A stretch of DNA of 40,320 nucleotides from a virus. Taxonomy: Duplodnaviria; Heunggongvirae; Uroviricota; Caudoviricetes. Below the pieces are notes generated by a model, which was not told where the DNA came from, searched no databases, and saw only the letters and a program-made list of their open reading frames with translations. This document shows, one piece after another, positions 2,228 through 22,630 of this stretch. The translations under genes were made by a program, and so were the position numbers. How positions within the stretch are numbered: the first letter of the stretch is position 1; each line of letters starts with the position of its first letter. The stretch is from IMG/VR virus record IMGVR_UViG_2698536428_000017; one strand, 5' to 3'.

Positions 2228-2580
2228 TACGCCTCCGATGTAACAGTCGTTATTCCATAGAGAGTGTCGATTTCAGCGGAAAACATGACACGTCGGGTCG
2301 TGGTATCCACCGTCGTATTGAAAGAGAGGATTGATTTAACGCCCTGCGTTTCGAGGATGCGCTTACGGATCGCCAGGTTGTAAGTTTCTGGTTTTTGCCT
2401 GCCCAGCACGGACTGGATCCACGGTGTTCCCTCTGTGGTATCAAGAAACCATTGCCCATACCACAATTCGAATCGCGTTTTCACAGCCTGCGCTACGGCC
2501 TCAGGCGAGTTAATCAGCCAGGTGTCATCACCGCTGCCAAAGGTGTAATCGCCATCGGCGTCTTCACGTCTGTATCGCAT
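2227..2580 (-). CDS. Small baseplate protein (gp25/W-like by position)
   Basis: 117 aa ORF between spike-like and J-like genes; start and stop overlap neighbours. Confidence 0.4.
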   Translation of the reverse strand: MRYRREDADGDYTFGSGDDTWLINSPEAVAQAVKTRFELWYGQWFLDTTEGTPWIQSVLGRQKPETYNLAIRKRILETQGVKSILSFNTTVDTTTRRVMFSAEIDTLYGITTVTSEA

Positions 2581-3332
2581 CAGTTTACCCCGTCGGTACT
2601 GCTTCCACCACGCTGAACACCACCATGAGTGTGTGTATCATCGATTGGCTTGCCATTAGCCTTCACGCTCCCCAAAAACTCAACAGCACCAGTGATTTTT
2701 GAAGCCACACCAGAAACCACAGACCCCACCATGCCCCCCATCCAGGTTAACAGGCCATGAATGGTTACTTTCTCAGAAAAATCAGCCAGAGGGGCAACCA
2801 CATCAAGACCACCTGGAGCGACAATTTTAATTTTCCTGGTATCAGGATTAAGCTCAAAATAGGTGCTGCCGTCATCACTACGCAACTGTGTGGCACTGGT
2901 ATTAATACCGCTAATCTTCCTTGCCTGCGACTGGGGACCGACAATACAAAACGCATCCGATAAATCATGCATTCTGTCATCGACCGACTCCTGTATCCCG
3001 CCACTCTGCCACCAGAAATCAATACAACGATCGGCAAAAATCACCAAACATTCATCACCGGCTTTAACTGGGAACGTTAGCGTACATCCTCCGCCGCGCG
3101 GGAATACCACTGGCACATCCACCAGCAATGGGTAATTTTTGGTAATGCGGTTGCCGTCATTATCCTTTTCAACCGAACGGATAGCAGGCTGCACAACTGC
3201 CGTCACCGCATCAGGATCGAATGACTGAATAATGCCAGGCAAGGCGACACGGATCTGGTTCTTTGTTGTTTCCCGTTCAGATTTGAATGTTTCGGCAAGG
3301 TCGCCGCTGCGGGTCTGGTCAGATACTGCCAT
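2580..3332 (-). CDS. Baseplate central spike / assembly protein V-like
   Basis: 250 aa; segment GDECLVIFADRCIDFWW resembles the OB-fold region of gpV/gp45-type spikes; Gly-rich C-terminus; GGAG RBS upstream of ATG at 3332. Confidence 0.5.
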   Translation of the reverse strand: MAVSDQTRSGDLAETFKSERETTKNQIRVALPGIIQSFDPDAVTAVVQPAIRSVEKDNDGNRITKNYPLLVDVPVVFPRGGGCTLTFPVKAGDECLVIFADRCIDFWWQSGGIQESVDDRMHDLSDAFCIVGPQSQARKISGINTSATQLRSDDGSTYFELNPDTRKIKIVAPGGLDVVAPLADFSEKVTIHGLLTWMGGMVGSVVSGVASKITGAVEFLGSVKANGKPIDDTHTHGGVQRGGSSTDGVN

Positions 3333-3350
3333 TTAGTAGGCTCCAGAAAG

Positions 3351-3374
3351 CAAAAAACCCGCCGAAGCGGGTTT
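3351..3374 (-). terminator. Rho-independent terminator after the two-gene moron
   Basis: Minus-strand RNA reads CCCGC-UUCG-GCGGG followed by U6; the plus strand has no U-tract after the hairpin, so it is unidirectional. Confidence 0.6.
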
Positions 3375-3391
3375 GATAACGTTAATTTTAT

Positions 3392-3787
3392 TCATGAAAC
3401 TCTAGCAGACTTTAGCTGTTCCCAGCGCTCAAAATAGAGTTCAGCAGCCTCGATTGCATCCTGTCCCATCTCTTTCGAAACAGTCACATTCGTCAGATCA
3501 TAGTCAGCTTCATTTCTAGCATCCCGCCACTGGCGAAGTACGAAAGCTAGGGATTTCAGTGTATTTGTCGGGTATGGCTCTGATTTGCACTCTGAGGGCG
3601 TTGACATATAACCCACAGTATTTTTGTGATGCTCATGGGTAAAATGCGGTATGGCAGTAAGTGAGCTAATAGACTCATGTAACATACTGTAATACGCCCT
3701 TGAGATAGCGCTTCGAAATCCACTCTCAATATTTTCAGACAGACATAATCGAGCGGTATCGAGAATCTGATTGCTAGTTACCGACAT
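3392..3787 (-). CDS. Hypothetical protein (moron gene 2), 131 aa
   Basis: ATG start, overlaps upstream ORF by 14 nt; about 40% GC against about 52% in flanking tail genes; no family recognised. Confidence 0.6.
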   Translation of the reverse strand: MSVTSNQILDTARLCLSENIESGFRSAISRAYYSMLHESISSLTAIPHFTHEHHKNTVGYMSTPSECKSEPYPTNTLKSLAFVLRQWRDARNEADYDLTNVTVSKEMGQDAIEAAELYFERWEQLKSARVS

Positions 3788-4547
3788 GGTAGCTCACCCC
3801 CGTATGCAACTGACGCGGAGAGGTAAATCTAGCTAACAGGGAACAATCATCCAGTTTAGATTCAGCGCAGACTCTATCAGCCAAGTCGAAGTTCATTTTG
3901 GCAATAGTTTTAGGCTCAAGATTTTTAATATCAACAACATAGCAACCGCTTCCACTAAGCTGAACGAAACCTGTCGTAGCCTTGTATTCACTTAGCAAGC
4001 CCCAGATTATGGATGCTAAGGTCTGGAACTGTTCCTTCGAGCACTGTGTGGCGCTATAGAAATTATCCATTTCTGCAAGGAGTTCTTCTTTGTGCTTCAT
4101 AGCATTACTCCTGCCTTCTGATTCAGAAAGAAGCTTAATGTGCTCTTCCATATAAAATTTTAACTGTTCACGCTCGCCGCAACGGTACGCCCAACTGTAT
4201 GCGTTGTGACTAAAGAGTTTTGTCCGATACTTCTTTGCCAGCGGGACATAGACATCCTTGAGTTCATTATAGCTAAATGTATTAATTAAAATGTGATGAT
4301 AGTGCATTGCCAACGTTACATCGTTTACTTCTAGGCTTATCCTGAGATAACGTAACGCGCTTTCAATCTTTCCGGTTATTGCATCCAGATAAGATAGTGC
4401 AATGTTGGTAGCAGGCGTTGGAGAGACAGAAAGTTCCTCTCGAATTTTCTTTTCAGTGAAGGGATCTAAACTTTCCCTATCCAATAGAAGCGCATTGAAT
4501 TGTTCAATATATTTTTGCGCTTTTTCTAATGGGATGCCTGCCGCCAT
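3774..4547 (-). CDS. Hypothetical protein (moron gene 1), 257 aa
   Basis: ATG at 4547..4545; low GC; no recognisable catalytic motif; inserted between baseplate hub and spike genes. Confidence 0.6.
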   Translation of the reverse strand: MAAGIPLEKAQKYIEQFNALLLDRESLDPFTEKKIREELSVSPTPATNIALSYLDAITGKIESALRYLRISLEVNDVTLAMHYHHILINTFSYNELKDVYVPLAKKYRTKLFSHNAYSWAYRCGEREQLKFYMEEHIKLLSESEGRSNAMKHKEELLAEMDNFYSATQCSKEQFQTLASIIWGLLSEYKATTGFVQLSGSGCYVVDIKNLEPKTIAKMNFDLADRVCAESKLDDCSLLARFTSPRQLHTGVSYHVGN

Positions 4548-4576
4548 GGATTATTTCTCTTACTAAAGGGATTGTG

Positions 4577-4605
4577 ATTGTGAACTTTGAACAATATCTC
4601 GTCAA
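4577..4605 (-). promoter_or_regulatory. Candidate sigma70 promoter for the moron pair
   Basis: Minus strand TTGACG (4605..4600), 17 nt spacer, CACAAT (4582..4577), about 30 nt upstream of the 257-aa start; -10 match is weak. Confidence 0.3.
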
Positions 4606-4642
4606 CCTTAAAGCGCTCATCTCGGAAGATTGACATCAAACT

Positions 4643-4990
4643 TTAGCGTAACGCCTTTTTACAAGGGAATGATCCGATGATTTTAGGCGCATCCATGCTG
4701 TTCTGCAGAAGCTGGACGTTCAGGAAAGCTTTTCCGTTACGCTTCACAAACTCAAAGCCGTAATTGTTGCCATCGCGAGAAGGCATCAGGCCCATGTTAG
4801 TTTTAACGTTGTCCCAGTCATCTTTCTTACCAAGAAACGTAATCTTCTGTGATGTTACCTGTTCACCGTTGATTTTTGTCCAACCGTTATCAGCTGCATG
4901 AAGTAGATATCCGCCGCATTGCAAATCAGCAAAAGCTGCTGAACAAGAAAATAATAACGAAATTGTCAAAACTAACTTCATACGCTTCAT
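4643..4990 (-). CDS. Small secreted or lipoprotein, 115 aa
   Basis: N-terminal signal peptide (MKRMKLVLTISLLFSCSAAFA, AFA-D cleavage or lipobox-like LFSC); two Cys in mature part; about 42% GC; start overlaps stop of hub-like gene. Confidence 0.6.
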   Translation of the reverse strand: MKRMKLVLTISLLFSCSAAFADLQCGGYLLHAADNGWTKINGEQVTSQKITFLGKKDDWDNVKTNMGLMPSRDGNNYGFEFVKRNGKAFLNVQLLQNSMDAPKIIGSFPCKKALR

Positions 4991-6054
4991 GAATAAATCC
5001 TTTGCTGCGCTGAGGACGAAAGTAGATCAGCCGCGCCACGTGCTTCACACATCATATCCATGTACCACGCCTGCCCCCTTGTGTCGCCAGTGTACATAAT
5101 CCCACGCACAATATAAACGCCATCCGTTGCGATGCTGGCAGGCTGCGATGTGGTGCCGCTTAGCGTGATATTTCCATCCGTGTTCTGGTCGGTGATCTGA
5201 CCACCAGTCATCGCAATATCGTTGTTCGACAAGGCGGTACGATACACGGAAGCCTGATCCAGCTGAATGAGTCCGTTAACCCGGATGTTAGGATTAATAA
5301 GCGCGCGGACGTTTACGCCGTTACCGATAGTCTGCTGTGGCATGCCAATAAGCCCGGTAGCGCTGTTGAGCACAATCGCTTCATGAACATATTCGTTATT
5401 CGCCACCATCTGGCGTTGACCGTCCACAAATTGCCATGTTGCGCCACATTGACCAGCTACGTTATCCATAAGATGCCGCGTCATGCCAAAGAGTACCCGC
5501 CCCCGGGGGAATACAGTAGCAGGCATTTCAGGCGTCAGGCCTTCGGTCGCGCCTTTGGCTTCGAAGTCTTTCATCAGCGCACGGTTCACATCAGCGACCG
5601 TGTAACCGGCAGCCAGCGTCTGTGAGGTTATACTGGTGGCAAAAGCCAGATCAGTATCTGCTGCCTGAATCAGGACGTAGGTATCAACCGGACTGTCTTT
5701 TCCTGTGACCGAGTAGCGAATTTCACCGCTGAAAATCAGTCCGTAGTTGCGGCCATCTCTCTGGCCCACGTCCGCCGCGTCAACTTCCCGCACGGTCCCT
5801 ACGTCGCTTGCTGACGCCTCCGGCGCGATACCGTCGTAACCGGCAATCAGACGCACTTTCGAAAATTCCTGCCCGGTGATTCGGTTCACAGTATCTGCCG
5901 AGAGGTTATAAATTTTGATAGTCCCTACCCGGGACGCGCTGCTGATGTTGAACCAGTCGATCGTAAAGGTGACTTTGAAATCACTTAGCTCAATTCCCTG
6001 ACCGTTCCCGTCCACAAGCTGCAGCTCGAAATGTCTCATCCAGTTCTGTGACAT
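4987..6054 (-). CDS. Baseplate hub-like protein
   Basis: 355 aa ORF after tape measure and small tail genes; size and position only. Confidence 0.45.
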   Translation of the reverse strand: MSQNWMRHFELQLVDGNGQGIELSDFKVTFTIDWFNISSASRVGTIKIYNLSADTVNRITGQEFSKVRLIAGYDGIAPEASASDVGTVREVDAADVGQRDGRNYGLIFSGEIRYSVTGKDSPVDTYVLIQAADTDLAFATSITSQTLAAGYTVADVNRALMKDFEAKGATEGLTPEMPATVFPRGRVLFGMTRHLMDNVAGQCGATWQFVDGQRQMVANNEYVHEAIVLNSATGLIGMPQQTIGNGVNVRALINPNIRVNGLIQLDQASVYRTALSNNDIAMTGGQITDQNTDGNITLSGTTSQPASIATDGVYIVRGIMYTGDTRGQAWYMDMMCEARGAADLLSSSAQQRIYS

Positions 6055-6359: not shown

Positions 6360-6946
6360 TAGCCGCCTCCCAGTAATGACGCCACGTTACCAGTGATGCT
6401 TTTCAGCAGTGAAGTATCTGGAGGCTTTGTGGTTTTGTTGCCGCTGTTCTGTACCGCCGACGTGCTGGCCCCTTCCTTCATGTTGGTTTTATCCGCGACG
6501 GTAATCTGCTGTGTCCGGGAGATAAGGACCTCCCTCAGGGTAAGGACGGCGGACAGGACATTTTCGGTTGTCTTGTCCGTCGTCACTTCCAGCGCCCGGA
6601 TCAACATGTTGCTGTACAGCCGTTTACCGGTTACCACATCGAAGGGGATACGGCTTTCCTGCAGATCCAGTAGCTCCTGATACGTCTGCTGAGGACTCAG
6701 GCCGAGCAGGCTGGTAGCCGTCAGGTTACTGGCAAAATCCAGCAATGTGCCGCCACCGGCGAAACCAACCTCCATCACCACTTCTGACGGTTTTTTATAG
6801 GCATGATCAGCGACAGCAGCCCCGACCTCTACCGGATGCTCGGTTATTTCAAGCATATCTGTATGCTTCTCTGAAATAACAACACTGGGAACAATCATTC
6901 CTATTTTTCTGCTCTGCTGATGGAAAAGTGTAGAGAGAATATCCAC
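6359..6946 (-). CDS. Tail protein following the tape measure
   Basis: 195 aa; GTG start overlapping tape measure stop with strong upstream Shine-Dalgarno; alternative ATG at 6898. Confidence 0.45.
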   Translation of the reverse strand: MDILSTLFHQQSRKIGMIVPSVVISEKHTDMLEITEHPVEVGAAVADHAYKKPSEVVMEVGFAGGGTLLDFASNLTATSLLGLSPQQTYQELLDLQESRIPFDVVTGKRLYSNMLIRALEVTTDKTTENVLSAVLTLREVLISRTQQITVADKTNMKEGASTSAVQNSGNKTTKPPDTSLLKSITGNVASLLGGG

Positions 6947-8934
6947 TAACCCACCCTCACCTGATTACTTCGCATGACCTGAGCATTTGCAGACTGTTGC
7001 CGACGTGCAACCTCATTACCGACAGCGTGCGGATCTCCGCCACCGTAAATGTGGTAGGTATTTTGCTGGTTAACCTCTGTCATTTTGCCACTAATTCCCG
7101 CCACGGCAGCCTTATTAATCAGCTCTCGAGAATAGATATTTCTTCCATTTTCATGCTGGATAATGCTGCTCATCAATGCTGACATGGTTTTCGGATCGCT
7201 CATATTCAGGGCAGCCCGGGGATCCACTCCCAGTCGTTGCGATACAGCCCTGATATACGCAGTTGTGTTGTTATTATCAGAGGCAGGTGCCCAGGTAGAG
7301 ATAATTTTTTCCACACTGTTTATTCCTCGCCCGGCGTACAACATTAACTGACGAGCAAGAGCCCGTAATCCATCAAAGGCAGTTTCAAATCTGGCAAATC
7401 GCCCGCCCGGGTGTTCAAGAGAAGCCCCCGCCTGACCAGCAAAATTAAGGTTTCCCGGATTGTTATTCCGTTCTCCTCGTTTCGTAGCCTGTGCATGTTG
7501 TTCCGGCTCATCATCACCAAACCAGCCGCGTACCGTCCGGCCCACACTGCGGGGATCGAATCCCCAGTGCTCTTTAATCCAGTCGGCTGTACTGTTAGCG
7601 CTGTCTGTAACCATCGGCATCGCTGACGGATTTTCGCTGCCCTGATTAAGTATCTGTTTGCCGATGCTGACGGCATCAGCCCAGCGTCCATCTTTGATAG
7701 CGTTAAGCAGGTCGGCAATCATGTTCAGCATTTTGCTGAATTCGCCCATCTGGTCGATGAAGTTGCTGAAATCCCACTTCAGGGACCATGATTTGGGGTC
7801 AATATTGAGTAGTTTCGCCAGCGCTTTCGCCAGATCGTTAACGGTCGTTTTAAGGTCACGAACCATCTTCAGCGCGGCATCGACCTCCGGTTTCCACTTG
7901 CCCCAGTCAATCAGGCTGTCGCCGCCTTCCTTCCAGGTCTGATAGTCCTCCCACAGGAGGGCAATCCCCGCCGCCAGCGCGGTAATGAGGCCAACCGGCG
8001 ACATCCAGAACGTACTGTTCAGAATGCGCAGCGCAATCGTCAGTGCGCCAAACAGCGAGATCAACTCCCGCGTTTGCTTATCCAGCGATTGCCACCAGGT
8101 GATAAGGCCTGATGTCCCCTCAATCAGTCTGAAGAACAGCCGCCCGATAATATCCCCGAGCGCCAGAATGCCTTTTATGGCTTTCGTCAAGGTCTGCTCG
8201 ATACGAGGGAAGTTGTCCAGGATATGGCGGCGCAGGGTGTCCAGCGAACCTGCAAGCCCACCCGCAAGATTAGAGCCGATTTTGTCACGGGCCATGCCTG
8301 CCATCGCGCTAAACTCACGCAAGGAGGTCATAAATTTGTTGGAGTTTCTGGCCGCCTCGTCAGCATTGAAGCCGATAGCTTTCGCCATTGCGCTGTACTG
8401 CCCGGAGAAGCCACCCACACCCCGGCGCATCGCCATAAGGGTATTTTCGTCAATGCCCAGCATCTGCGCATACTGGTTAGCCCGGTAATACGGCATGCTG
8501 CTGAGTTTCTGTCCAATACCCGTAAAGATAGCGGCCATGTCACGCATGTTACCGCTGGCATCACGGGTCTGTACGCCCAGGCGATTCAGAAATCCCTCCG
8601 CCCCGGGATTATTACGAATAAACCGGGAGAGGTTTTCCAGAGAAGATCGCGCAGCGTCCACGCTGCCGCCAACCTGCGAAACCGCATAGCCAATAGACTG
8701 AATTCCCTGGACTGTCGCGCCGGTGCGCTGTGACGCCCAGTAAAGATTATCCAGACCAGAGGCGATCTTAGCCGTGAAGGCCACCACGGACAGCGCAGCT
8801 CCTTCGACGGCCAGCCCCATTTTGATGACATTTGCAGTTGTACCGGCGAGGACAGAACCGAATTTTTTCGCTCCTGCATCATCCACACTGAAGCCAAGCG
8901 AGACGAGGAAATCTTTAATAGTCTCGGCGTTCAT
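6946..8934 (-). CDS. Tail tape measure protein
   Basis: 662 aa from ATG at 8934..8932 with GGAGAG RBS (track ORF begins at an upstream TTG); helical Ala/Gly/Ser-rich composition; follows chaperone gene. Confidence 0.7.
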   Translation of the reverse strand: MNAETIKDFLVSLGFSVDDAGAKKFGSVLAGTTANVIKMGLAVEGAALSVVAFTAKIASGLDNLYWASQRTGATVQGIQSIGYAVSQVGGSVDAARSSLENLSRFIRNNPGAEGFLNRLGVQTRDASGNMRDMAAIFTGIGQKLSSMPYYRANQYAQMLGIDENTLMAMRRGVGGFSGQYSAMAKAIGFNADEAARNSNKFMTSLREFSAMAGMARDKIGSNLAGGLAGSLDTLRRHILDNFPRIEQTLTKAIKGILALGDIIGRLFFRLIEGTSGLITWWQSLDKQTRELISLFGALTIALRILNSTFWMSPVGLITALAAGIALLWEDYQTWKEGGDSLIDWGKWKPEVDAALKMVRDLKTTVNDLAKALAKLLNIDPKSWSLKWDFSNFIDQMGEFSKMLNMIADLLNAIKDGRWADAVSIGKQILNQGSENPSAMPMVTDSANSTADWIKEHWGFDPRSVGRTVRGWFGDDEPEQHAQATKRGERNNNPGNLNFAGQAGASLEHPGGRFARFETAFDGLRALARQLMLYAGRGINSVEKIISTWAPASDNNNTTAYIRAVSQRLGVDPRAALNMSDPKTMSALMSSIIQHENGRNIYSRELINKAAVAGISGKMTEVNQQNTYHIYGGGDPHAVGNEVARRQQSANAQVMRSNQVRVG

Positions 8935-9111
8935 TATCCTCTCTCCATTTCTCAATGCGCCGCTGGTTATCCGCTTTTACCGCCAGATGGTCATTCAAGA
9001 GAGCAATGTCGTACAAATCGACAGAGCCATCTTTAAGTGCTGTATAAGGAATTAACCCGGCGTCAACCGGATTGAGAAGGTAGGACAGCCCGTCCGGCAG
9101 GCTGTTAAACG

Positions 9112-16886: not shown

Positions 16887-18204
16887 TCTCGATGTCCTCG
16901 TCGGTAATGGATGCCCCGATGCCGGTTACGTCAGAATTTTCGCGCAAATCAGTCATAGCGGCTTTCAGTGTCATCAGACCATCACCCAGCGCTGTACTGA
17001 TTGCGTTGGTGGTATTTAACGCCACCGTTGAACGATCGACATCAGACATTTGCCAGAGCGGGTTAAACTCAAACGTGAAATCATCCGGGAGCGGCTTGCC
17101 AAGTTCCGAACGATGCATGATGTCCAGTATCCGCCGCACCGGAAGACGTAAACGTCTCTCCTGCAACGAACTGATGCGGTCGTAATAGTTGGCAAGGTCT
17201 GCATCACCGGTAGAAAATCCTTTCGGGGACTGTCCAAACAGCCGCACCAGTGGGATACCAACAGCGCCACTAATCTGTTCTGCAAACTGTGAAAGGATGT
17301 CATCCAGACCACTGAAGCTGTACTGATGAGTTTCAAACTTATCCCGCGAGTCCATGAGCGTCATGCCTTCATTGCTCTGGAACTGTCGAATCAGGTCAAT
17401 ATTCTTCAGCAACGCTTCATACGCAGGACCACCAAGTGCGATAAGCTCGCGTAGCTTCTCCACGCTGTAGGTGCGCAAATGCGCTTTGTAGACCAGCTGC
17501 GCCGCGCCGACAGTAGCGCTGTCGAACGCGGTAAGACGATCCCAGATACGCTCTACAACCGACATTCCCCATTCGTTCTCGGTCATCTTCTGCTGAAATG
17601 GCAGCGTGACGCCATCAAAGCGAATCAGTCGACTGTGATGAATGCGCCAGGCAGGAATTCCCGTTGCTGTGGTCACCACATCGTAAAACTCAGGTTTACC
17701 CAGGTCCGGCCCCATATCTTTAATGCGGCGGGTCAGTACCGGGTCAATCATCCAGCGGTCGAGCGGGAGAATCCCCTTAAACTTGCCCTTACCGATGGTT
17801 TCGGGTCGCAGCGGGGTCATTGGTGCCTGCCCCTCAATCATGATGAAACCCACCGCGCCGCCGTAGAGGCGCGACCATTTCAGCACGTCATTCAGCGCAT
17901 CCCAGATTTGCAACTCATCCAGTTGTGATTCGAGAATGCCACGATCTTTTGCATCAATTTCCGACGTGATGCGAATGCCTTTGCGGGTCATATCATCCGG
18001 GATAGCATCGACCGCTTCGCCGATGATCCAGGACGAACGATAGGACCATTCCACCAGCATGCGGTTACGACTGGTGAAATTAGCCCGGTAGGTGGATGCT
18101 GAGTGCTGGTTAGGTGTCTGCATCCCTACGCGGGCAATAAAATTCTCATAACCATCAGCTGTGGCCTGCGCAGTTCGCCGCAGGGCTTGTTTGTTTCGTG
18201 CCAT
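16738..18204 (-). CDS. Portal protein
   Basis: 488 aa ORF between terminase large subunit and MuF-like gene; acidic disordered C-terminal tail. Confidence 0.65.
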   Translation of the reverse strand: MARNKQALRRTAQATADGYENFIARVGMQTPNQHSASTYRANFTSRNRMLVEWSYRSSWIIGEAVDAIPDDMTRKGIRITSEIDAKDRGILESQLDELQIWDALNDVLKWSRLYGGAVGFIMIEGQAPMTPLRPETIGKGKFKGILPLDRWMIDPVLTRRIKDMGPDLGKPEFYDVVTTATGIPAWRIHHSRLIRFDGVTLPFQQKMTENEWGMSVVERIWDRLTAFDSATVGAAQLVYKAHLRTYSVEKLRELIALGGPAYEALLKNIDLIRQFQSNEGMTLMDSRDKFETHQYSFSGLDDILSQFAEQISGAVGIPLVRLFGQSPKGFSTGDADLANYYDRISSLQERRLRLPVRRILDIMHRSELGKPLPDDFTFEFNPLWQMSDVDRSTVALNTTNAISTALGDGLMTLKAAMTDLRENSDVTGIGASITDEDIENAEDEAPPGIGEPDDEPQEPSGGNPLSNQPTQDSAGGRRHRKWSLRWFK

Positions 18205-19826
18205 CAGGCCTGTCTCCCTAGCAGCTCCCAGATGTTCAGGGCTGAATTCATTGGGGCATAGTTGATCATCACCGAGTCGGCAAGGTTTGGCGACCGGGTT
18301 CCATCAGGCTGTTTATCAATAACGATTTTTCCCACACCATTAATGGAATAGGTCGGCTGCGAAAGCTCGATGATGAGTTTATCTTTGAGTGCCATGCTAC
18401 TGCTGATTGAGATGATTTCGTCCGGGTTGTAAGCCATACCTTCAACCACGGCGCGCCAGGTATTCTGAAAAAGTTTACGTAACCGCCACCAGCTCTGGGC
18501 TTTGGCGTTAGCGAAGAAGTCCTTGTTAAGACGTGCGGCTTGCCCGTTGTCCCCGCGAACAGCTTCATCATCCGGATCAAATACCGCGCCACTACCTCGA
18601 AACGGTGTGGCGAGTATTGACGGTCGGCGCGCAGCGTTACGCAGTTCGTTGATAGCGCGTGCATCGCCGCGAACGCCAGCGCCCAGCCCGTCCTCGTCAA
18701 AGCGAAACTCTTCGAGGTTGTCCTGTTCGCAAAAACCGAAGACCTTCTCGACGGACTGATAAATGTCGCTGCCCACACCAGACCATTCCCGCACATTTTC
18801 CAGGAGGAAGCCATGACGGGTGGAAAAGGCATTTTTGTCCCTGCCTTCATCAGCGACATCCATCGCGCCAAGTCGTTTGCCTGTTGGCTGGATACCCAGT
18901 TTGATATGTGCATCAACGGCAGCCTGTACCCATTCGGATGGAATCAGGACGCCTTCCGCTGATGCGCTGTAGTTCAGATCAAGTTCCTGTGCCACCACCA
19001 CCGGATTATCGATTTTCTCGCATTCCCTGCGATACCACTCTTCATCCTTGCGAGGATCATCCCGCCAGTGGAATGTGAATACCGGTATCTTCCCGCCATG
19101 ACGCTTCTGAGCGAACGGGTTAGCCATGCCGTTAACTGAACTCAGGTCGATACGGCAACGCGTCGTTTGTGACAACGCCGCATCAATCAGCAGAGGACGC
19201 TGAAGGAATGCAGCCTCATCAACCAGATAAAGCGTGGTACGGTCACCACGACCAATATTATCGCCAGCCTCGCCTTTGATAACGGCACCAGTTTCAGGAA
19301 ACTCAACACGCATATATGGCGCGTGCTTCTTCTCGCTCCACGAACCGCGAAACTCTACAGGTAGCGTTTCCACGAACTTGCGTGCCTTCCAGAACAATGC
19401 TTTCGGGTCACCAGTGCTGTCGACGTATTCCTCTTTACGGGAGCCGAAACCGATAACCATTTCTTTGTTGAAGAGACAAAGCGAGCAGGCCAGTCCGATC
19501 GCGGTCCAACTGAGCCCCATTTCACGGGATTTTTCGGTAATACCATTCTCCCGATTGCTCCAGCGTTCCATAATCCAGTGGATCCACTCCTCCTGCTTAG
19601 GGAAGAGTAAAAACGGAATGGTCACCGGCAGGCCATAATCAATATTACGCGGGTCCGTTGTCATGCCCCAGTCGATGATGAACTGAGCCGGATTGGTTCG
19701 GTAAAACTGTTTTAGTGCTGGCAATATTTCAGGGTTCTGGCGAATGCGCTGTAAGCGTTCCATCCGCCATTCAAAAACCATCTGGTAATCAGGATGTTTA
19801 AAATCGAAGTGAAATGGTAACGGCAT
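18204..19826 (-). CDS. Terminase large subunit
   Basis: 540 aa ORF directly after small subunit and coupled to portal gene; size and position. Confidence 0.7.
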
Positions 19827-19828
19827 AC

Positions 19829-20401
19829 TTAGCCCATCATTTTTTTATACGCTTCTGCAGCCTGCTCCGGCGTTAAGTTGGTAATTTCTGTTCTGACTGG
19901 TCCTCCGTCAGCACCAGTCACTTCATTTTTGACGTTGTCTTTAAACGCCTGAACAGAAACATGACGCCCAAGCAACTCCAGGTTTTTAACCTTATCAGGC
20001 CACTTAATCTTTTTAAGGATCCCGACCATTTCTCTGTCATCTCCTCGCCCCTCAAACATTTCAGCGAGGTTAAATCCACTCAGGTACCGACGCCACGATT
20101 CCGGCCACGCAGACAGAGGCTTAATACTTAAATCGTCCTCCAGGATGTCAGCCACATCGAGCCTGTCGATCTCAACCAGTCGCATCAGCACATAATTCGC
20201 ATCAATGCCCAGTTGATCAATACGCTCCTGCTTTAGCTCGTTAATACGGGCGCGTATCTCAGGTTTACCGTATAGTTCAGCCCCCGTAACATGTGCTCGC
20301 CTGGAGACGTAGCCTGCGCGAATAGCTGCTTGTGTAGCATTCAGATCGACAAGAAACTCGCGACAAAACACCTCGTGTTTTGCTTTCAGCTTCTTAGTCA
20401 T
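19829..20401 (-). CDS. Terminase small subunit
   Basis: 190 aa; N-terminal HTH-like segment ([23 protein letters not shown]) typical of small terminase subunits; precedes large subunit. Confidence 0.6.
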
Positions 20402-21450: not shown

Positions 21451-21792
21451 TTACTCCTTAGAGCCACCAAACTTGTTACCGATTACTCGCATTGCAGCCC
21501 CACGAATAGCATCCACACCGATCAGCCCAACACCACCACCAATGGCAACAGAAAGCGATTTAGGCCATCCAACATACTCAAGAGCGGATGCAAAGGTCAG
21601 CGTCAGAGCACCACAGAGCAAAATCTCAAGCGTTTTTCGTTTCCAGCCGCCGCCACCGCCAAAATAGGCAATGCGCAAGCCAGCCATAACAATTGACATA
21701 ACCACTGCGCCCAACGGCGTATCTCCACGCCACCAACTTTGTAAGAGTTCCAGTAAGTCAGGCCAGGAATGAGGAGCATTGTGCATTTTCAT
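21451..21792 (-). CDS. Holin, lambda S-like with dual-start MKM motif
   Basis: Start placed at ATG 21792 (MKMHNAP...) preceded by GGAGGTG; track ORF start at 21810 lies inside the RBS; hydrophobic helices. Confidence 0.6.
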   Translation of the reverse strand: MKMHNAPHSWPDLLELLQSWWRGDTPLGAVVMSIVMAGLRIAYFGGGGGWKRKTLEILLCGALTLTFASALEYVGWPKSLSVAIGGGVGLIGVDAIRGAAMRVIGNKFGGSKE

Positions 21793-21893
21793 ACTTCCCA
21801 CCTCCGCCATTACGGGGTGTTGTTGAAAGGCGGGCCCTGCGTATACGCCCGTAGGATTGGGTTATGAGCCGTCCTTCGGTGGGCCCTGAATAC

Positions 21894-22195: not shown

Positions 22196-22630
22196 TCATA
22201 CCAGCGTAGCGCAGTTTTTGCGTAGCGCACTAATACTTTTTTCATCCCTTTGAATTTCGACCTCAGGATCCATCTGAAGGCTCACACCCAGCATGCAGAG
22301 ACACCCCTCAATGAATCCCTCTGCTACCTGCAACTGCTGGCGGATAAATCCTTCAGAACAGCGACGCCGCCGCCCTATCTCACGTTTGCTTAACCCGTAG
22401 ACGTAGTACAGCATAATGACGTCCAGTTCCTCAGGCTTACGGACCTGCTGCAGCCGACAGACGCAAGCATCGATAATCAGGCCATCGTCGTCACAGCAAC
22501 TCAGCCTGCCAGGCGAGCTGCTGACTACCAGCCCTTTAAATCCCGTCGCTATTGGAGCCCAGCTCACTGTGGTGTTGCTATCGGCAGCCCATCCACCCCA
22601 GCGCTCTAAAACCTGTTGAATATTACGCAT
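22196..22630 (-). CDS. Late antiterminator Q (QuuD-like)
   Basis: 144 aa; N-terminus MRNIQQVLERWGGWAA...GFKGL...CCDDD matches recalled QuuD-type Q proteins of E. coli lambdoid prophages. Confidence 0.75.
   Translation of the reverse strand: MRNIQQVLERWGGWAADSNTTVSWAPIATGFKGLVVSSSPGRLSCCDDDGLIIDACVCRLQQVRKPEELDVIMLYYVYGLSKREIGRRRRCSEGFIRQQLQVAEGFIEGCLCMLGVSLQMDPEVEIQRDEKSISALRKNCATLV

What the first reader, a model, noticed from the sequence alone, without database searches (positions are those of the whole stretch)
4643..4990. Secreted or lipoprotein gene translationally coupled to the baseplate hub gene
The 115-aa protein has a clear signal peptide and two Cys in the mature part, lower GC (about 42%) than the tail genes, and a start overlapping the hub-like gene stop. 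A periplasmic or outer-membrane protein in a tail operon is unlikely to be a virion part. It could be a superinfection-exclusion factor, a receptor modifier, or a lysogenic-conversion factor. It sits directly upstream of the two-gene moron, so the three may form one accessory island.
Basis: partly seen in the sequence, partly recalled or inferred. Interest (0 to 1): 0.45.

Follow-up and report, generated by a model that had tools for sequence, protein, structure and literature searches.

The report
Exported barrel protein beside baseplate hub
A small gene inside a prophage's tail-building operon encodes a protein that is probably sent to the bacterial periplasm instead of being built into the virus particle; a whole group of enterobacterial phages keeps it, but its job, most likely blocking infection at the cell envelope, has never been tested.

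Summary
On the minus strand, 4643..4990 encodes a 115-aa protein. Its ATG overlaps the hub stop codon (ATGA), its GC is 42.2% against 53.4% for the hub, and it has a Sec-type signal peptide (AFA|DL). Two Cys in the mature part (C25, C110) are invariant.

It is a real gene. It belongs to PHROG 3443 (function unknown), has 404 homologue clusters, and shows pN/pS of 0.10-0.31 in the mature part. AlphaFold (pLDDT 88.9) gives a small 8-stranded beta-barrel with no specific structural relative. The MliC/PliC lysozyme-inhibitor membership tests failed.

In about 80 related viral contigs the gene always follows the hub directly, and in 76 of 80 its start overlaps the hub stop by 4 or 1 nt. Downstream of it lies a hypervariable cargo slot with more than 30 unrelated gene sets. 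The 257+131-aa pair is only one of these and has its own promoter-like and terminator-like signals. So the gene is not one island with that pair.

More distant phages with the same baseplate lack the gene, and Hafnia phage yong1 keeps only a 21-codon relic. It therefore looks like a fixed accessory gene, not a virion part.

My best guess, untested, is a periplasmic exclusion factor made with the late genes. I found no covariation with any tail protein and no signal for lysogenic expression.

The parts
4643..4990 (-). CDS of the 115-aa exported protein (PHROG 3443), stop codon included
   Evidence: ORF listed. PHROG 3443 match at E=1.1e-53. 404 homologue clusters. pN/pS 0.10-0.31 in the mature part.
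4928..4990 (-). Signal peptide, codons 1-21 (MKRMKLVLTISLLFSCSAAFA), with the predicted signal peptidase I site AFA|DL. Cys16 (4943-4945) makes a lipobox-like LFSC.
   Evidence: Sequence and hydropathy. The signal peptide is variable in sequence but always present in 66 of 66 homologues; lipobox-like in only 19 of 66. pN/pS 0.66, as expected for a signal peptide.
4646..4927 (-). Mature domain, codons 22-115: an 8-stranded beta-barrel. Invariant Cys25 (4916-4918) and Cys110 (4661-4663) lie at its two ends. Most conserved stretch: MPxRDGNxYGF, residues 69-79 (4754-4786).
   Evidence: AlphaFold2 model with pLDDT 88.9, above 92 over the mature part, 8 strands. Invariant columns.
4987..4990 (-). 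ATGA overlap of the hub stop codon with the start codon (translational coupling)
   Evidence: The overlap is 4 nt in 46 and 1 nt in 30 of 80 related loci.
4998..5003 (-). Shine-Dalgarno sequence AAAGGA inside the 3' end of the hub gene, 7 nt before the ATG
   Evidence: Read directly from the sequence.
4987..6054 (-). Baseplate hub gene (355 aa), the upstream partner in the coupling
   Evidence: PHROG 196 'baseplate hub' at 1.3e-88. Pfam E217_GP41 at 3.5e-5, below the curated cut-off.
4550..4605 (-). Two overlapping sigma-70 promoter-like sites in the 95-nt spacer after the 115-aa gene, upstream of the 257-aa gene
   Evidence: Consensus scan, 9 of 12 matches each. The count is not above the shuffled expectation, so this is only suggestive.
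3392..4547 (-). Two-gene cargo cassette: 257-aa gene (3774-4547) overlapping a 131-aa HEPN-like gene (3392-3787). It is one of many alternative cargos at this slot and is not part of the 115-aa gene unit.
   Evidence: PHROGs 17809 and 5176. Weak match to HEPN structures at E=0.002. Cargo diversity.
3355..3374 (-). Intrinsic-terminator-like hairpin plus T-run after the cargo cassette, before the spike gene
2580..3332 (-). Baseplate spike gene, the downstream boundary of the variable slot
   Evidence: Pfam PF18352 at 4.2e-44 and Apex motif.
7087..7482 (-). Lysozyme-fold peptidoglycan hydrolase domain (Enc34 endolysin / PHA02564 type) inside the tape measure protein (TMP), residues about 492-623. 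Considered as a possible target.
   Evidence: phmmer against PDB: 7q47 'Endolysin' at 2.5e-13 and 9vvp_L at 3.1e-20. Identity of 7Q47 from PMC8943055.
22196..22630 (-). Antiterminator Q gene. It shows that the lysis, head and tail genes on the minus strand form a Q-dependent late transcript that includes the 115-aa gene.
   Evidence: Pfam Phage_antitermQ at 5.8e-50, with an S-type holin at 21451-21810. Gene order in a near-identical E. coli prophage.

Best explanation
SHOWN. 4643..4990(-) is a real, selected gene for a small protein with a Sec-type signal peptide. Its mature part of about 94 aa is predicted to fold as an 8-stranded beta-barrel with one invariant Cys near each end of the mature chain. 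The gene has no promoter-like or terminator-like signal of its own. Its start overlaps the stop of the baseplate hub gene. It lies inside the Q-antiterminated late transcript.

It is fixed at this place in SEN34-like (Brunovirus and relatives) temperate myoviruses of Enterobacterales. It is missing from more distant phages with the same baseplate and has been replaced in at least one sequenced phage.

INFERRED.
- The protein is made together with the tail proteins late in lytic growth.
- It is exported by Sec, cleaved after AFA21 and oxidised to a C25-C110 disulfide in the periplasm.
- It stays in the envelope of the phage-producing cell and does not join the virion.

MOST LIKELY FUNCTION (inference, not shown). 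It is an envelope-acting exclusion factor that interferes with the periplasmic stage of infection by incoming related phages. That means the tail tip (hub and tape-measure exit complex) or its peptidoglycan-cutting domain. This is the logic of T4 Spackle, with an unrelated fold. After induction the repressor-based immunity is gone. Such a factor would protect the producing cell from superinfection and from premature lysis caused by many adsorbing progeny.
For: Export and fold:
- Signal peptide with an A-x-A site and exactly two mature Cys in 66 of 66 homologues.
- Confident beta-barrel model.
- The strands are only 3-9 residues long and the mature chain is 94 aa, too small for an outer-membrane barrel.

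Selection: pN/pS 0.10-0.31 with pS about 0.6.

Late co-expression:
- ATGA overlap plus Shine-Dalgarno sequence, conserved in 76 of 80 loci.
- No promoter-like site upstream within the hub 3' end.
- Q antiterminator and late-operon layout.

Accessory, not structural:
- Absent from Bordetella IFTN9, Ralstonia PY059YO380, Edwardsiella ZHS and Acinetobacter Ab105-1phi, where the hub gene runs directly into the spike gene.
- A 21-codon relic in Hafnia phage yong1.

Link with the tail tip or envelope:
- The gene is always next to the hub. A marine relative has the order plug-X-hub.
- Variants fused behind a lipoprotein domain sit at the same place.
- Unrelated secreted two-Cys proteins sit at the same junctions in EKP1, PSTCR3 and Magia.

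A possible target exists: the TMP carries a lysozyme-fold domain that must act in the periplasm.

Arms-race-like behaviour: two allele classes about 68% identical occur in otherwise 95%-identical phages, and variation is concentrated in the N-terminal half.

Precedents: periplasmic T4 Spackle inhibits the tail lysozyme (PMC7677548), and T5 Llp acts from the periplasmic side (PMC9586334).
Against: - There is no experimental datum on localisation, expression or phenotype.
- No sequence or specific fold similarity to any known exclusion protein or lysozyme inhibitor.
- The TMP hydrolase domain is a swapped cassette. 38 of 74 loci have the Enc34 type and 36 do not. That second group was not typed locus by locus, though SLT-type TMPs occur in relatives. 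Neither the presence nor the allele of the gene tracks this.
- Within the E. coli clade the allele is uncorrelated (r about 0) with TMP, Dit, plug, spike, gpW, gpJ and gpI. It correlates only with the physically adjoining hub 3' end. No partner is revealed in cis.
- Some phages have a lysozyme-domain TMP and no such gene (Ab105-1phi). In Magia a different secreted protein is encoded on the opposite strand.
- Known exclusion proteins are usually made early or from the prophage, and this gene shows no signal for that.
- Chromosomal, non-phage homologues exist, so the fold may have a general periplasmic role.
Confidence: 0.35

Rival explanations
1. Receptor masking from the periplasmic side (T5 Llp / phi80 Cor logic). 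The protein, lipid-anchored in some alleles, binds the periplasmic face of the outer-membrane receptor. This shuts the receptor, so progeny are not wasted on infected cells or debris.
For: - Lipobox-like LFSC in this allele group (19 of 66).
- Fusion variants with a clear lipoprotein N-terminal domain at the same locus.
- Late expression fits protection of progeny at lysis.
- Allelic dimorphism independent of tail-core proteins would fit a host-side target.
- Precedent in PMC9586334.
Against: - Most family members have no lipobox. A soluble protein would be lost at lysis unless tightly bound.
- The allele does not follow the baseplate wedge proteins (gpJ, gpI) that lie next to the fibre genes. 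The fibre itself could not be tested because it runs off the window.
- No similarity to Llp or Cor.
Confidence: 0.15
2. Host-benefit factor unrelated to phage entry. It would be a PliC/MliC-like or T6SS-immunity-like periplasmic inhibitor that protects the cell wall of the carrier from lysozymes or injected peptidoglycan hydrolases (lysogenic conversion).
For: - Same general architecture as MliC/PliC: a signal peptide, an 8-strand barrel, and one Cys near each end of the mature chain (E. coli MliC sequence shown in the alignment).
- One UniRef record is labelled 'C-type lysozyme inhibitor domain-containing protein'.
- One chromosomal homologue lies near an Hcp gene.
Against: - Pfam MliC does not match any member, including the labelled one, while E. 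coli MliC scores 6.7e-18 as a positive control.
- hhalign probability is 7.6%.
- There is no promoter for expression in the lysogen.
- The strict coupling to a late tail gene is odd for a host-benefit gene.
Confidence: 0.12
3. Another late periplasmic function, for example a ligand-binding barrel. It might bind a muropeptide, lipid or other small molecule and so tune lysis timing or envelope stress signalling during virion production.
For: - The best structural neighbours are ligand-binding barrels: avidins, Cap15 and lipocalin-like proteins.
- Late co-expression.
- Chromosomal orphan homologues in housekeeping neighbourhoods.
Against: - The lysis cassette (S holin, R-like transglycosylase, Rz-like protein) is complete and lies elsewhere.
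- No ligand-binding motif was identified.
Confidence: 0.13
4. A virion or assembly component of the baseplate whose hydrophobic N-terminus is not a cleaved signal peptide.
For: - It always lies inside the baseplate gene block and is translationally coupled to the hub.
- In a marine relative it lies between plug and hub.
Against: - The N-terminus has canonical n, h and c regions with an A-x-A site. It is variable in sequence, as signal peptides are.
- Invariant Cys pair.
- More distant phages with homologous plug, hub, spike, gpW and gpJ lack it.
- It is replaced in yong1.
- GC content is foreign to the tail genes.
Confidence: 0.04

Closest known systems
T4 Spackle (gp61.3), periplasmic inhibitor of the tail lysozyme gp5 (PMC7677548, PMC7650644)
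   Same: It is a small phage-encoded protein of about 100 aa with a cleavable signal peptide. It acts in the periplasm of the infected cell during lytic growth. The phage's own tail carries a lysozyme-fold domain that could be the target.
   Different: - Spackle is helical; this protein is an all-beta barrel, and there is no sequence similarity.
- Spackle is an early gene product (PMC7677548 abstract). This gene is coupled to a late baseplate gene.
- Inhibition is not shown here, and the gene does not co-vary with the TMP hydrolase type.
MliC/PliC family (Pfam PF09864) and Brucella PhiA, periplasmic or lipoprotein lysozyme inhibitors
   Different: - No Pfam match, while the positive control matched.
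- hhalign probability 7.6%.
- The family's conserved inhibitory motifs, as I recall them, do not appear in the alignment.
T5 Llp and phi80/N15/HK022 Cor: small lipoproteins that block the phage's own receptor (PMC9586334)
   Same: They are small exported phage proteins that protect an infected cell or its debris from further phage attack. This allele has a lipobox-like motif, and fused lipoprotein variants exist.
   Different: - The lipobox is not a family feature (19 of 66).
- There is no homology.
- The target is unknown.
- Llp and Cor are independent transcription units; this gene is not.
Classical morons of lambdoid phages such as HK97 gp15, lambda bor and lom (PMC3594210)
   Same: The gene is AT-richer than its neighbours. 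It is an accessory gene inserted between tail genes of a lambdoid-regulated phage, and its product acts in the envelope.
   Different: A moron is defined as an independent transcription unit. This gene has no promoter-like or terminator-like signal and overlaps the hub stop codon. The neighbouring 257+131-aa cassette fits the moron definition better.
PHROG 3443 (function unknown)
   Same: Full-length match at E=1.1e-53. This is the family the gene belongs to.
   Different: The family carries no annotation. Everything about fold, export, synteny and selection reported here is new description, not a known function.

Membership tests
PHROG 3443 | Significant full-length match to the family profile | tested here: met
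   E=1.1e-53, residues 1-112 on profile positions 1-112 of 115. The fusion variants P0134 and P0153 also match.
MliC/PliC (PF09864) | Match to the Pfam MliC profile | tested here: not met
   No hit for the window protein at E<=0.1, nor for the 48 family members scanned at E<=10. E. coli MliC, the positive control, scores 6.7e-18. hhalign of the family profile against MliC gives probability 7.6%.
MliC/PliC (PF09864) | 8-stranded beta-barrel with a Cys pair at the ends of the chain, exported | tested here: inconclusive
MliC/PliC (PF09864) | Inhibition of c-type lysozyme | not testable with these tools
   This needs a purified protein and an enzyme assay.
T4 Spackle-like tail-lysozyme inhibitors | Homology or shared fold with Spackle | tested here: not met
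   No PDB sequence hit. The model is all-beta, whereas Spackle is helical (PMC7677548).
T4 Spackle-like tail-lysozyme inhibitors | Binds and inhibits the phage's own tail-borne peptidoglycan hydrolase | not testable with these tools
   Indirect test only: there is no covariation between the gene or its alleles and the TMP hydrolase cassette.
Llp/Cor-type exclusion lipoproteins | Conserved lipobox (lipoprotein) | tested here: not met
   A lipobox-like motif occurs in 19 of 66 distinct homologues only. The rest have A-x-A signal peptidase I sites. It is present, as LFSC, in the window copy itself.
Moron (independent transcription unit; PMC3594210) | Own promoter and terminator | tested here: not met
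   There are no promoter-like or terminator-like sites around the gene, and it overlaps the hub stop as ATGA. The sites found flank the downstream two-gene cassette instead. This is a consensus scan only, so weak promoters could be missed.
Moron (independent transcription unit; PMC3594210) | Base composition that deviates from the neighbours | tested here: met
   42.2% against 53.4% for the hub. The difference is general, 44.7% against 53.4% across 79 loci.
Virion structural protein of the baseplate | Conserved wherever the homologous baseplate occurs; cytoplasmic | tested here: not met
   Absent from IFTN9, PY059YO380, ZHS and Ab105-1phi, which have homologous hub and spike genes. Reduced to a relic in yong1. 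It has a signal peptide.
Outer-membrane 8-stranded barrel (OmpX/Ail/Lom type) | Strands long enough to span the membrane; aromatic C-terminal residue | tested here: not met

The most novel reading that the evidence does not exclude
PHROG 3443 proteins are a new class of late-expressed periplasmic 'tail-tip immunity' proteins of contractile-tailed temperate phages. They would work like a T6SS immunity protein encoded next to the hub/spike (VgrG-like) genes. The barrel would neutralise the periplasmic stage of genome delivery, either the tape-measure exit or its wall-cutting domain. This would protect the induced cell from its own kind once repressor immunity has collapsed. Unrelated secreted two-Cys proteins recur at the same junctions in other phage lineages (EKP1, PSTCR3, Magia), which would make this a general, convergent strategy.
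Probability: 0.2. Interest if true: 0.65.

Novelty: new variant of a known kind. Interest (0 to 1): 0.4.

Why it matters
About 6% of complete E. coli genomes (319 of 5426), including EPEC E2348/69, carry this gene, as do many Klebsiella, Salmonella, Yersinia and Serratia prophages. No function is assigned to it anywhere.

If it is an exclusion factor, three things follow:
- It would define a new fold and a new timing (late, coupled to the baseplate) for phage-phage exclusion.
- It would help explain resistance of lysogens or induced cells to related therapeutic phages.
- It would give a handle on the poorly understood periplasmic step of genome delivery by contractile tails.

Independently of function, the locus marks a well-defined cargo hotspot between this gene and the spike gene. 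That hotspot carries dozens of candidate defence cassettes.

Tried and rejected
1. **Family libraries.** Pfam, NCBIfam and PADLOC gave no match for the 115-aa protein. Scans of the whole family at permissive E-values returned only noise.
2. **PDB by sequence profile.** Only chance hits to MurD at E 0.46.
3. **Fold searches.**
   - Foldseek against PDB and BFVD found nothing at E<=0.001.
   - The afdb50 library was unavailable.
4. **MliC/PliC lead.** It came from one UniRef name. It was not reproduced by Pfam, with a working positive control, or by hhalign. Rejected as membership, kept as an architectural resemblance.
5. **Inhibitor paired with the TMP lysozyme domain.** Tested by co-occurrence across 74 loci. 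There is no association, because the domain is a swapped cassette.
6. **Co-evolving partner among tail proteins.** Distance-matrix correlations follow only physical proximity. Within the E. coli clade r is about 0 for everything except the adjoining hub 3' end.
7. **Internal promoter in the hub 3' end.**
   - The consensus scan found none.
   - There is a small dip in synonymous divergence at hub codons 311-340 (pS 0.37-0.41 against about 0.55).
   - There is slightly higher third-position conservation at hub codons 316-345, about as high as at the hub 5' end.
   - I regard this as inconclusive.
8. **Lipoprotein reading.** Not a family feature.
9. **Outer-membrane barrel reading.** Rejected on size and strand length.
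10. **Homology of the secreted proteins at the same junction in PSTCR3 and EKP1.** hhalign probabilities were 0.2-3%, and the PSTCR3 protein has only one database relative. Homology therefore cannot be shown.
11. **The search for related loci with the diverse alignment A2.** It failed because no stretch was conserved enough. A1 was used instead.
12. **SEN34 paper (PMC5261728).** It contains no proteomics and no mention of this gene.
13. **Fused-chain AlphaFold test of a complex.** Not attempted.
Full report
**Observation**

The ORF exists at 4643..4990 on the minus strand. It is 115 aa and starts with ATG. On the coding strand the junction reads ...ATT TAT TCA TGA AGC GTA TG.... The start codon therefore overlaps the stop codon of the 355-aa hub gene (4987..6054) as ATGA. 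An AGGA Shine-Dalgarno sequence lies 7 nt upstream.

GC is 42.2%. The hub and the tape measure protein (TMP) are at 53.4%, and the spike and the whole window at 49.9%.

The N-terminus MKRMK/LVLTISLLF/SCSAAFA|DLQ has the three regions of a Sec signal peptide and an A-x-A cleavage site. The mature part contains Cys25 and Cys110. A third Cys (Cys16) lies in the signal peptide and makes a lipobox-like LFSC.

**Is it a real gene?**

Many ORFs of this length in the window are spurious, but this one is not.
- It matches PHROG 3443 (function unknown) over its full length at E=1.1e-53.
- It has 404 homologue clusters at 90% identity, in Escherichia, Klebsiella, Salmonella, Enterobacter, Citrobacter, Yersinia, Serratia, Photorhabdus, Edwardsiella and others.
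- Only 64 representatives at 50% identity turned up among 1.84 billion proteins, so the family is narrow.
- Across 66 distinct coding sequences, synonymous divergence is near saturation (pS about 0.6). pN/pS is 0.66 in the signal peptide, 0.31 in residues 22-65 and 0.10 in residues 66-112.
- This is the signature of a protein-coding gene with a loosely constrained signal peptide and a constrained mature domain. The conservation is at the protein level, not the DNA level.

**The protein**

- All 66 distinct homologues have a basic N-terminus, a hydrophobic core, a small-x-small site and exactly two Cys in the mature part. C25 and C110 are invariant even in members only 24-40% identical.
- The lipobox-like motif occurs in 19 of 66, essentially this allele group. 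The family default is therefore a soluble periplasmic protein. A lipoprotein form of this particular copy cannot be excluded.
- AlphaFold2 on a 48-sequence alignment gives pLDDT 88.9, above 92 throughout the mature part, with eight strands.
- Foldseek against PDB and BFVD finds nothing significant.
- Strands of 3-9 residues in a 94-aa chain ending in ...CKKALR rule out an outer-membrane barrel.

**Evolutionary behaviour**

I fetched 80 IMG/VR loci that encode a relative.
- In every locus that includes the upstream region, the gene directly follows the hub gene (hub identity 57-99%). In every locus that extends far enough downstream, it lies upstream of the spike gene.
- The hub-stop to start distance is -4 nt in 46 loci, -1 nt in 30 and different in 4.
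- The same order is seen in sequenced phages: SEN34, Mulock and Klebsiella phage ST405-OXA48phi1.2. It also holds in E. coli prophages, including EPEC E2348/69.
- 319 of 5426 complete E. coli genomes have a DNA-level match, all chromosomal.
- The distance from the gene to the spike gene, by contrast, varies from 35 to about 1400 nt, and reaches about 2100 nt in one locus.
- The ORFs in that slot fall into more than 30 unrelated clusters, and five loci have none.
- The 257+131-aa pair of this window is one such cargo. It occurs with both major allele classes of the 115-aa gene.
- Only the pair is flanked by sigma-70-like sites (4605..4550) and a terminator-like hairpin (3374..3355).
- The 115-aa gene is therefore a fixed gene at the edge of a cargo hotspot. 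It is not part of one island with the pair.
- Its composition (mean 44.7% GC) lies between the tail genes (53-54%) and the cargo (40.8%).

**Accessory, not structural**

- Phages with a homologous plug-hub-spike block but more distant hubs (25-35% identity) have the hub gene running straight into the spike gene. These are Bordetella IFTN9, Ralstonia PY059YO380, Edwardsiella ZHS and Acinetobacter Ab105-1phi.
- Hafnia phage yong1 (hub 77% identical) has an unrelated cytoplasmic gene after the hub. This is followed by an in-frame relic of the last 21 codons, RLLISSMDAPKLIGSFPCKKVPG*.
- Short 3'-end matches with no annotated gene also occur in E. coli genomes. They were not examined.
- So the gene was acquired within the enterobacterial lineage and can be lost. 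That yong1 is a viable phage is an inference from its deposition as a complete phage genome.

**Association with the hub region**

- A marine-metagenome family member lies between plug and hub.
- Two variants carry the domain behind a lipoprotein module of about 190 aa. For the one looked up (P0134), the gene again sits directly after the hub.
- Unrelated secreted two-Cys proteins occupy the same junctions in EKP1, Providencia PSTCR3 and, on the opposite strand, Burkholderia Magia.
- A few family members are chromosomal orphans with no phage context.

**Regulatory context**

The window carries a Q antiterminator (22196..22630, Pfam 5.8e-50) and an S-type holin. It also has a lambda-R-like endolysin and an Rz-like gene, followed by terminase, head and tail genes, nearly all on the minus strand.

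The 115-aa gene therefore sits in a Q-dependent late transcript, and nothing suggests a promoter of its own. A slight dip in synonymous divergence in hub codons 311-340 is inconclusive. The lysis cassette is complete and distant, and the endolysin has no signal sequence. A role as part of the lysis cassette is unlikely.

**Tests of specific ideas**

1. *MliC/PliC lysozyme inhibitor.* One UniRef record carries that name. No family member matches Pfam MliC, while E. coli MliC does at 6.7e-18. hhalign gives 7.6% probability. Membership is not met. Only the general architecture is alike: export, an 8-strand barrel and a terminal Cys pair.
2. *Inhibitor of the phage's own tail hydrolase.*
   - The TMP has a lysozyme-fold domain of the Enc34 endolysin family at residues about 492-623 (PMC8943055).
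   - Only 38 of 74 loci with the gene have this domain; the rest lack it. SLT-type TMPs are seen or annotated in relatives.
   - Alleles of the gene do not follow the split.
   - Ab105-1phi has a lysozyme-domain TMP and no such gene.
   - The idea is not excluded, since an inhibitor could be broad, but comparative data do not support it.
3. *Co-evolving partner.*
   - Distance-matrix correlations with eleven tail-protein segments decline with physical distance.
   - Within the E. coli clade, the two allele classes (21 loci at 85% identity or more, 32 at about 68%) are uncorrelated with everything except the hub C-terminal half (r 0.37).
   - The last 12 residues of the hub switch with the allele.
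   - So the recombination breakpoint lies in the hub 3' end, and no partner is revealed.

**Mechanism**

Shown:
- The protein has a Sec-type signal peptide and a predicted barrel fold with an invariant Cys pair.
- It is under purifying selection.
- It is translationally coupled to the hub within the late operon.
- It is fixed in one phage lineage but dispensable.

Inferred:
- It is periplasmic (or anchored in some alleles) and made late.
- It is not in the virion.

The most likely function, at about 0.35, is an envelope-acting exclusion factor. It would interfere with the periplasmic step of infection by related phages, following the logic of T4 Spackle (PMC7677548). This would be useful after induction, when repressor immunity has collapsed.

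Rivals:
- Receptor masking from the periplasmic side, as with T5 Llp (PMC9586334): 0.15.
- A host-benefit inhibitor or immunity protein: 0.12.
- Another late periplasmic role such as ligand binding: 0.13.
- A structural or assembly role: 0.04.

The remaining probability is 'something not yet imagined'.

**Novelty and value**

The family is catalogued but undescribed. As a phage-encoded exported accessory protein it belongs to a known kind. Its fold, its strict coupling to a late baseplate gene and its lineage-wide fixation make it a new variant.

It is moderately interesting. It is common in clinically relevant Enterobacterales and easy to test, and it sits next to a rich cargo hotspot. There is as yet no evidence of an unusual mechanism.

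Noticed in passing
window 3333-4642 (between the 115-aa gene and the spike gene); loci L001-L082: This slot is a hypervariable cargo hotspot. About 75 related loci hold more than 30 unrelated ORF clusters, and 5 loci hold none. Most products look cytoplasmic, and several are two-gene cassettes.
   Followed up: partly
window 3392-3787 (-) and 3774-4547 (-): The 131-aa protein is HEPN-like, with PDB HEPN-domain hits at E=0.002 over nearly its full length. Its family is the commonest cargo (25 loci) and is paired with at least three different upstream partners of about 250-276 aa. This looks like a toxin-antitoxin or defence-type cassette. PADLOC has no match.
   Followed up: partly
window 7087-7482 (-), inside the TMP gene 6946-8955: The tape measure protein carries an Enc34-endolysin-type (PHA02564, PDB 7Q47) lysozyme-fold domain. 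In about half of the related loci this internal segment has no detectable match, while the TMP N- and C-terminal parts stay conserved, so it behaves as a swapped domain cassette. SLT-type TMPs are seen in other relatives.
   Followed up: partly
L083 (Hafnia phage yong1) 5023-5091; E. coli hits H123 and H124: In yong1, an in-frame 21-codon relic of the 3' end of the 115-aa gene survives after the rest was replaced by an unrelated gene. Short 3'-end matches with no annotated gene also occur in some E. coli genomes, but these were not examined.
   Followed up: partly
hub 3' end, window about 4990-5025 (-); loci of the E. coli clade: There are two allele classes of the 115-aa gene, about 68% identical, in otherwise 95%-identical phages. 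The last 12 hub residues switch with the allele (...LLSSSAQQRIYS against ...AADLVSSSARER), which places a recombination breakpoint in the hub 3' end.
   Followed up: yes
L084 4799-5122 (EKP1); L093 2463-2936 (PSTCR3); L101 5457-5828 minus strand (Magia gp21); L001 5364-5780 (SEN34_21): Unrelated small proteins with signal peptides or membrane anchors, and two Cys in those inspected, are encoded at the hub/spike or plug/hub junctions in other phage lineages. SEN34_21 and the EKP1 protein share an ...LL(K/Q)N(E/D)VIFTC... motif by eye.
   Followed up: partly
P0134, P0153; loci L085-L087: Variants exist in which the barrel domain is fused behind a lipoprotein module of about 190 aa (lipobox LSGC). 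For P0134 the gene is still placed directly after the hub gene. The N-terminal module has no family match.
   Followed up: partly
L098 (P0143), L088 (P0169), L089 (P0147): Chromosomal, non-prophage homologues exist (24-32% identical). One lies in the clsA-yciY-[X]-yciI-tonB neighbourhood and one lies a few genes from an Hcp (T6SS) gene. They form a subfamily with a ...VRTSQSQIRIxGxYDC ending.
   Followed up: partly
L092 (E. coli S1-IND-01-A) 17945-20033: In this otherwise identical prophage the spike gene is split by an IS2 insertion, so that copy is probably defective.
   Followed up: no
window about 5035-5124 (-), hub codons 311-340: There is a modest dip in synonymous divergence (pS 0.37-0.41 against about 0.55 elsewhere) 45-130 nt upstream of the 115-aa gene start. 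It might reflect an embedded signal or just constraints at the gene end, since the hub 5' end shows similar third-position conservation.
   Followed up: partly
P0118 (UniRef100_A0A090UZ02): The UniRef name 'C-type lysozyme inhibitor domain-containing protein' for one family member cannot be reproduced with current Pfam. It should not be propagated.
   Followed up: yes
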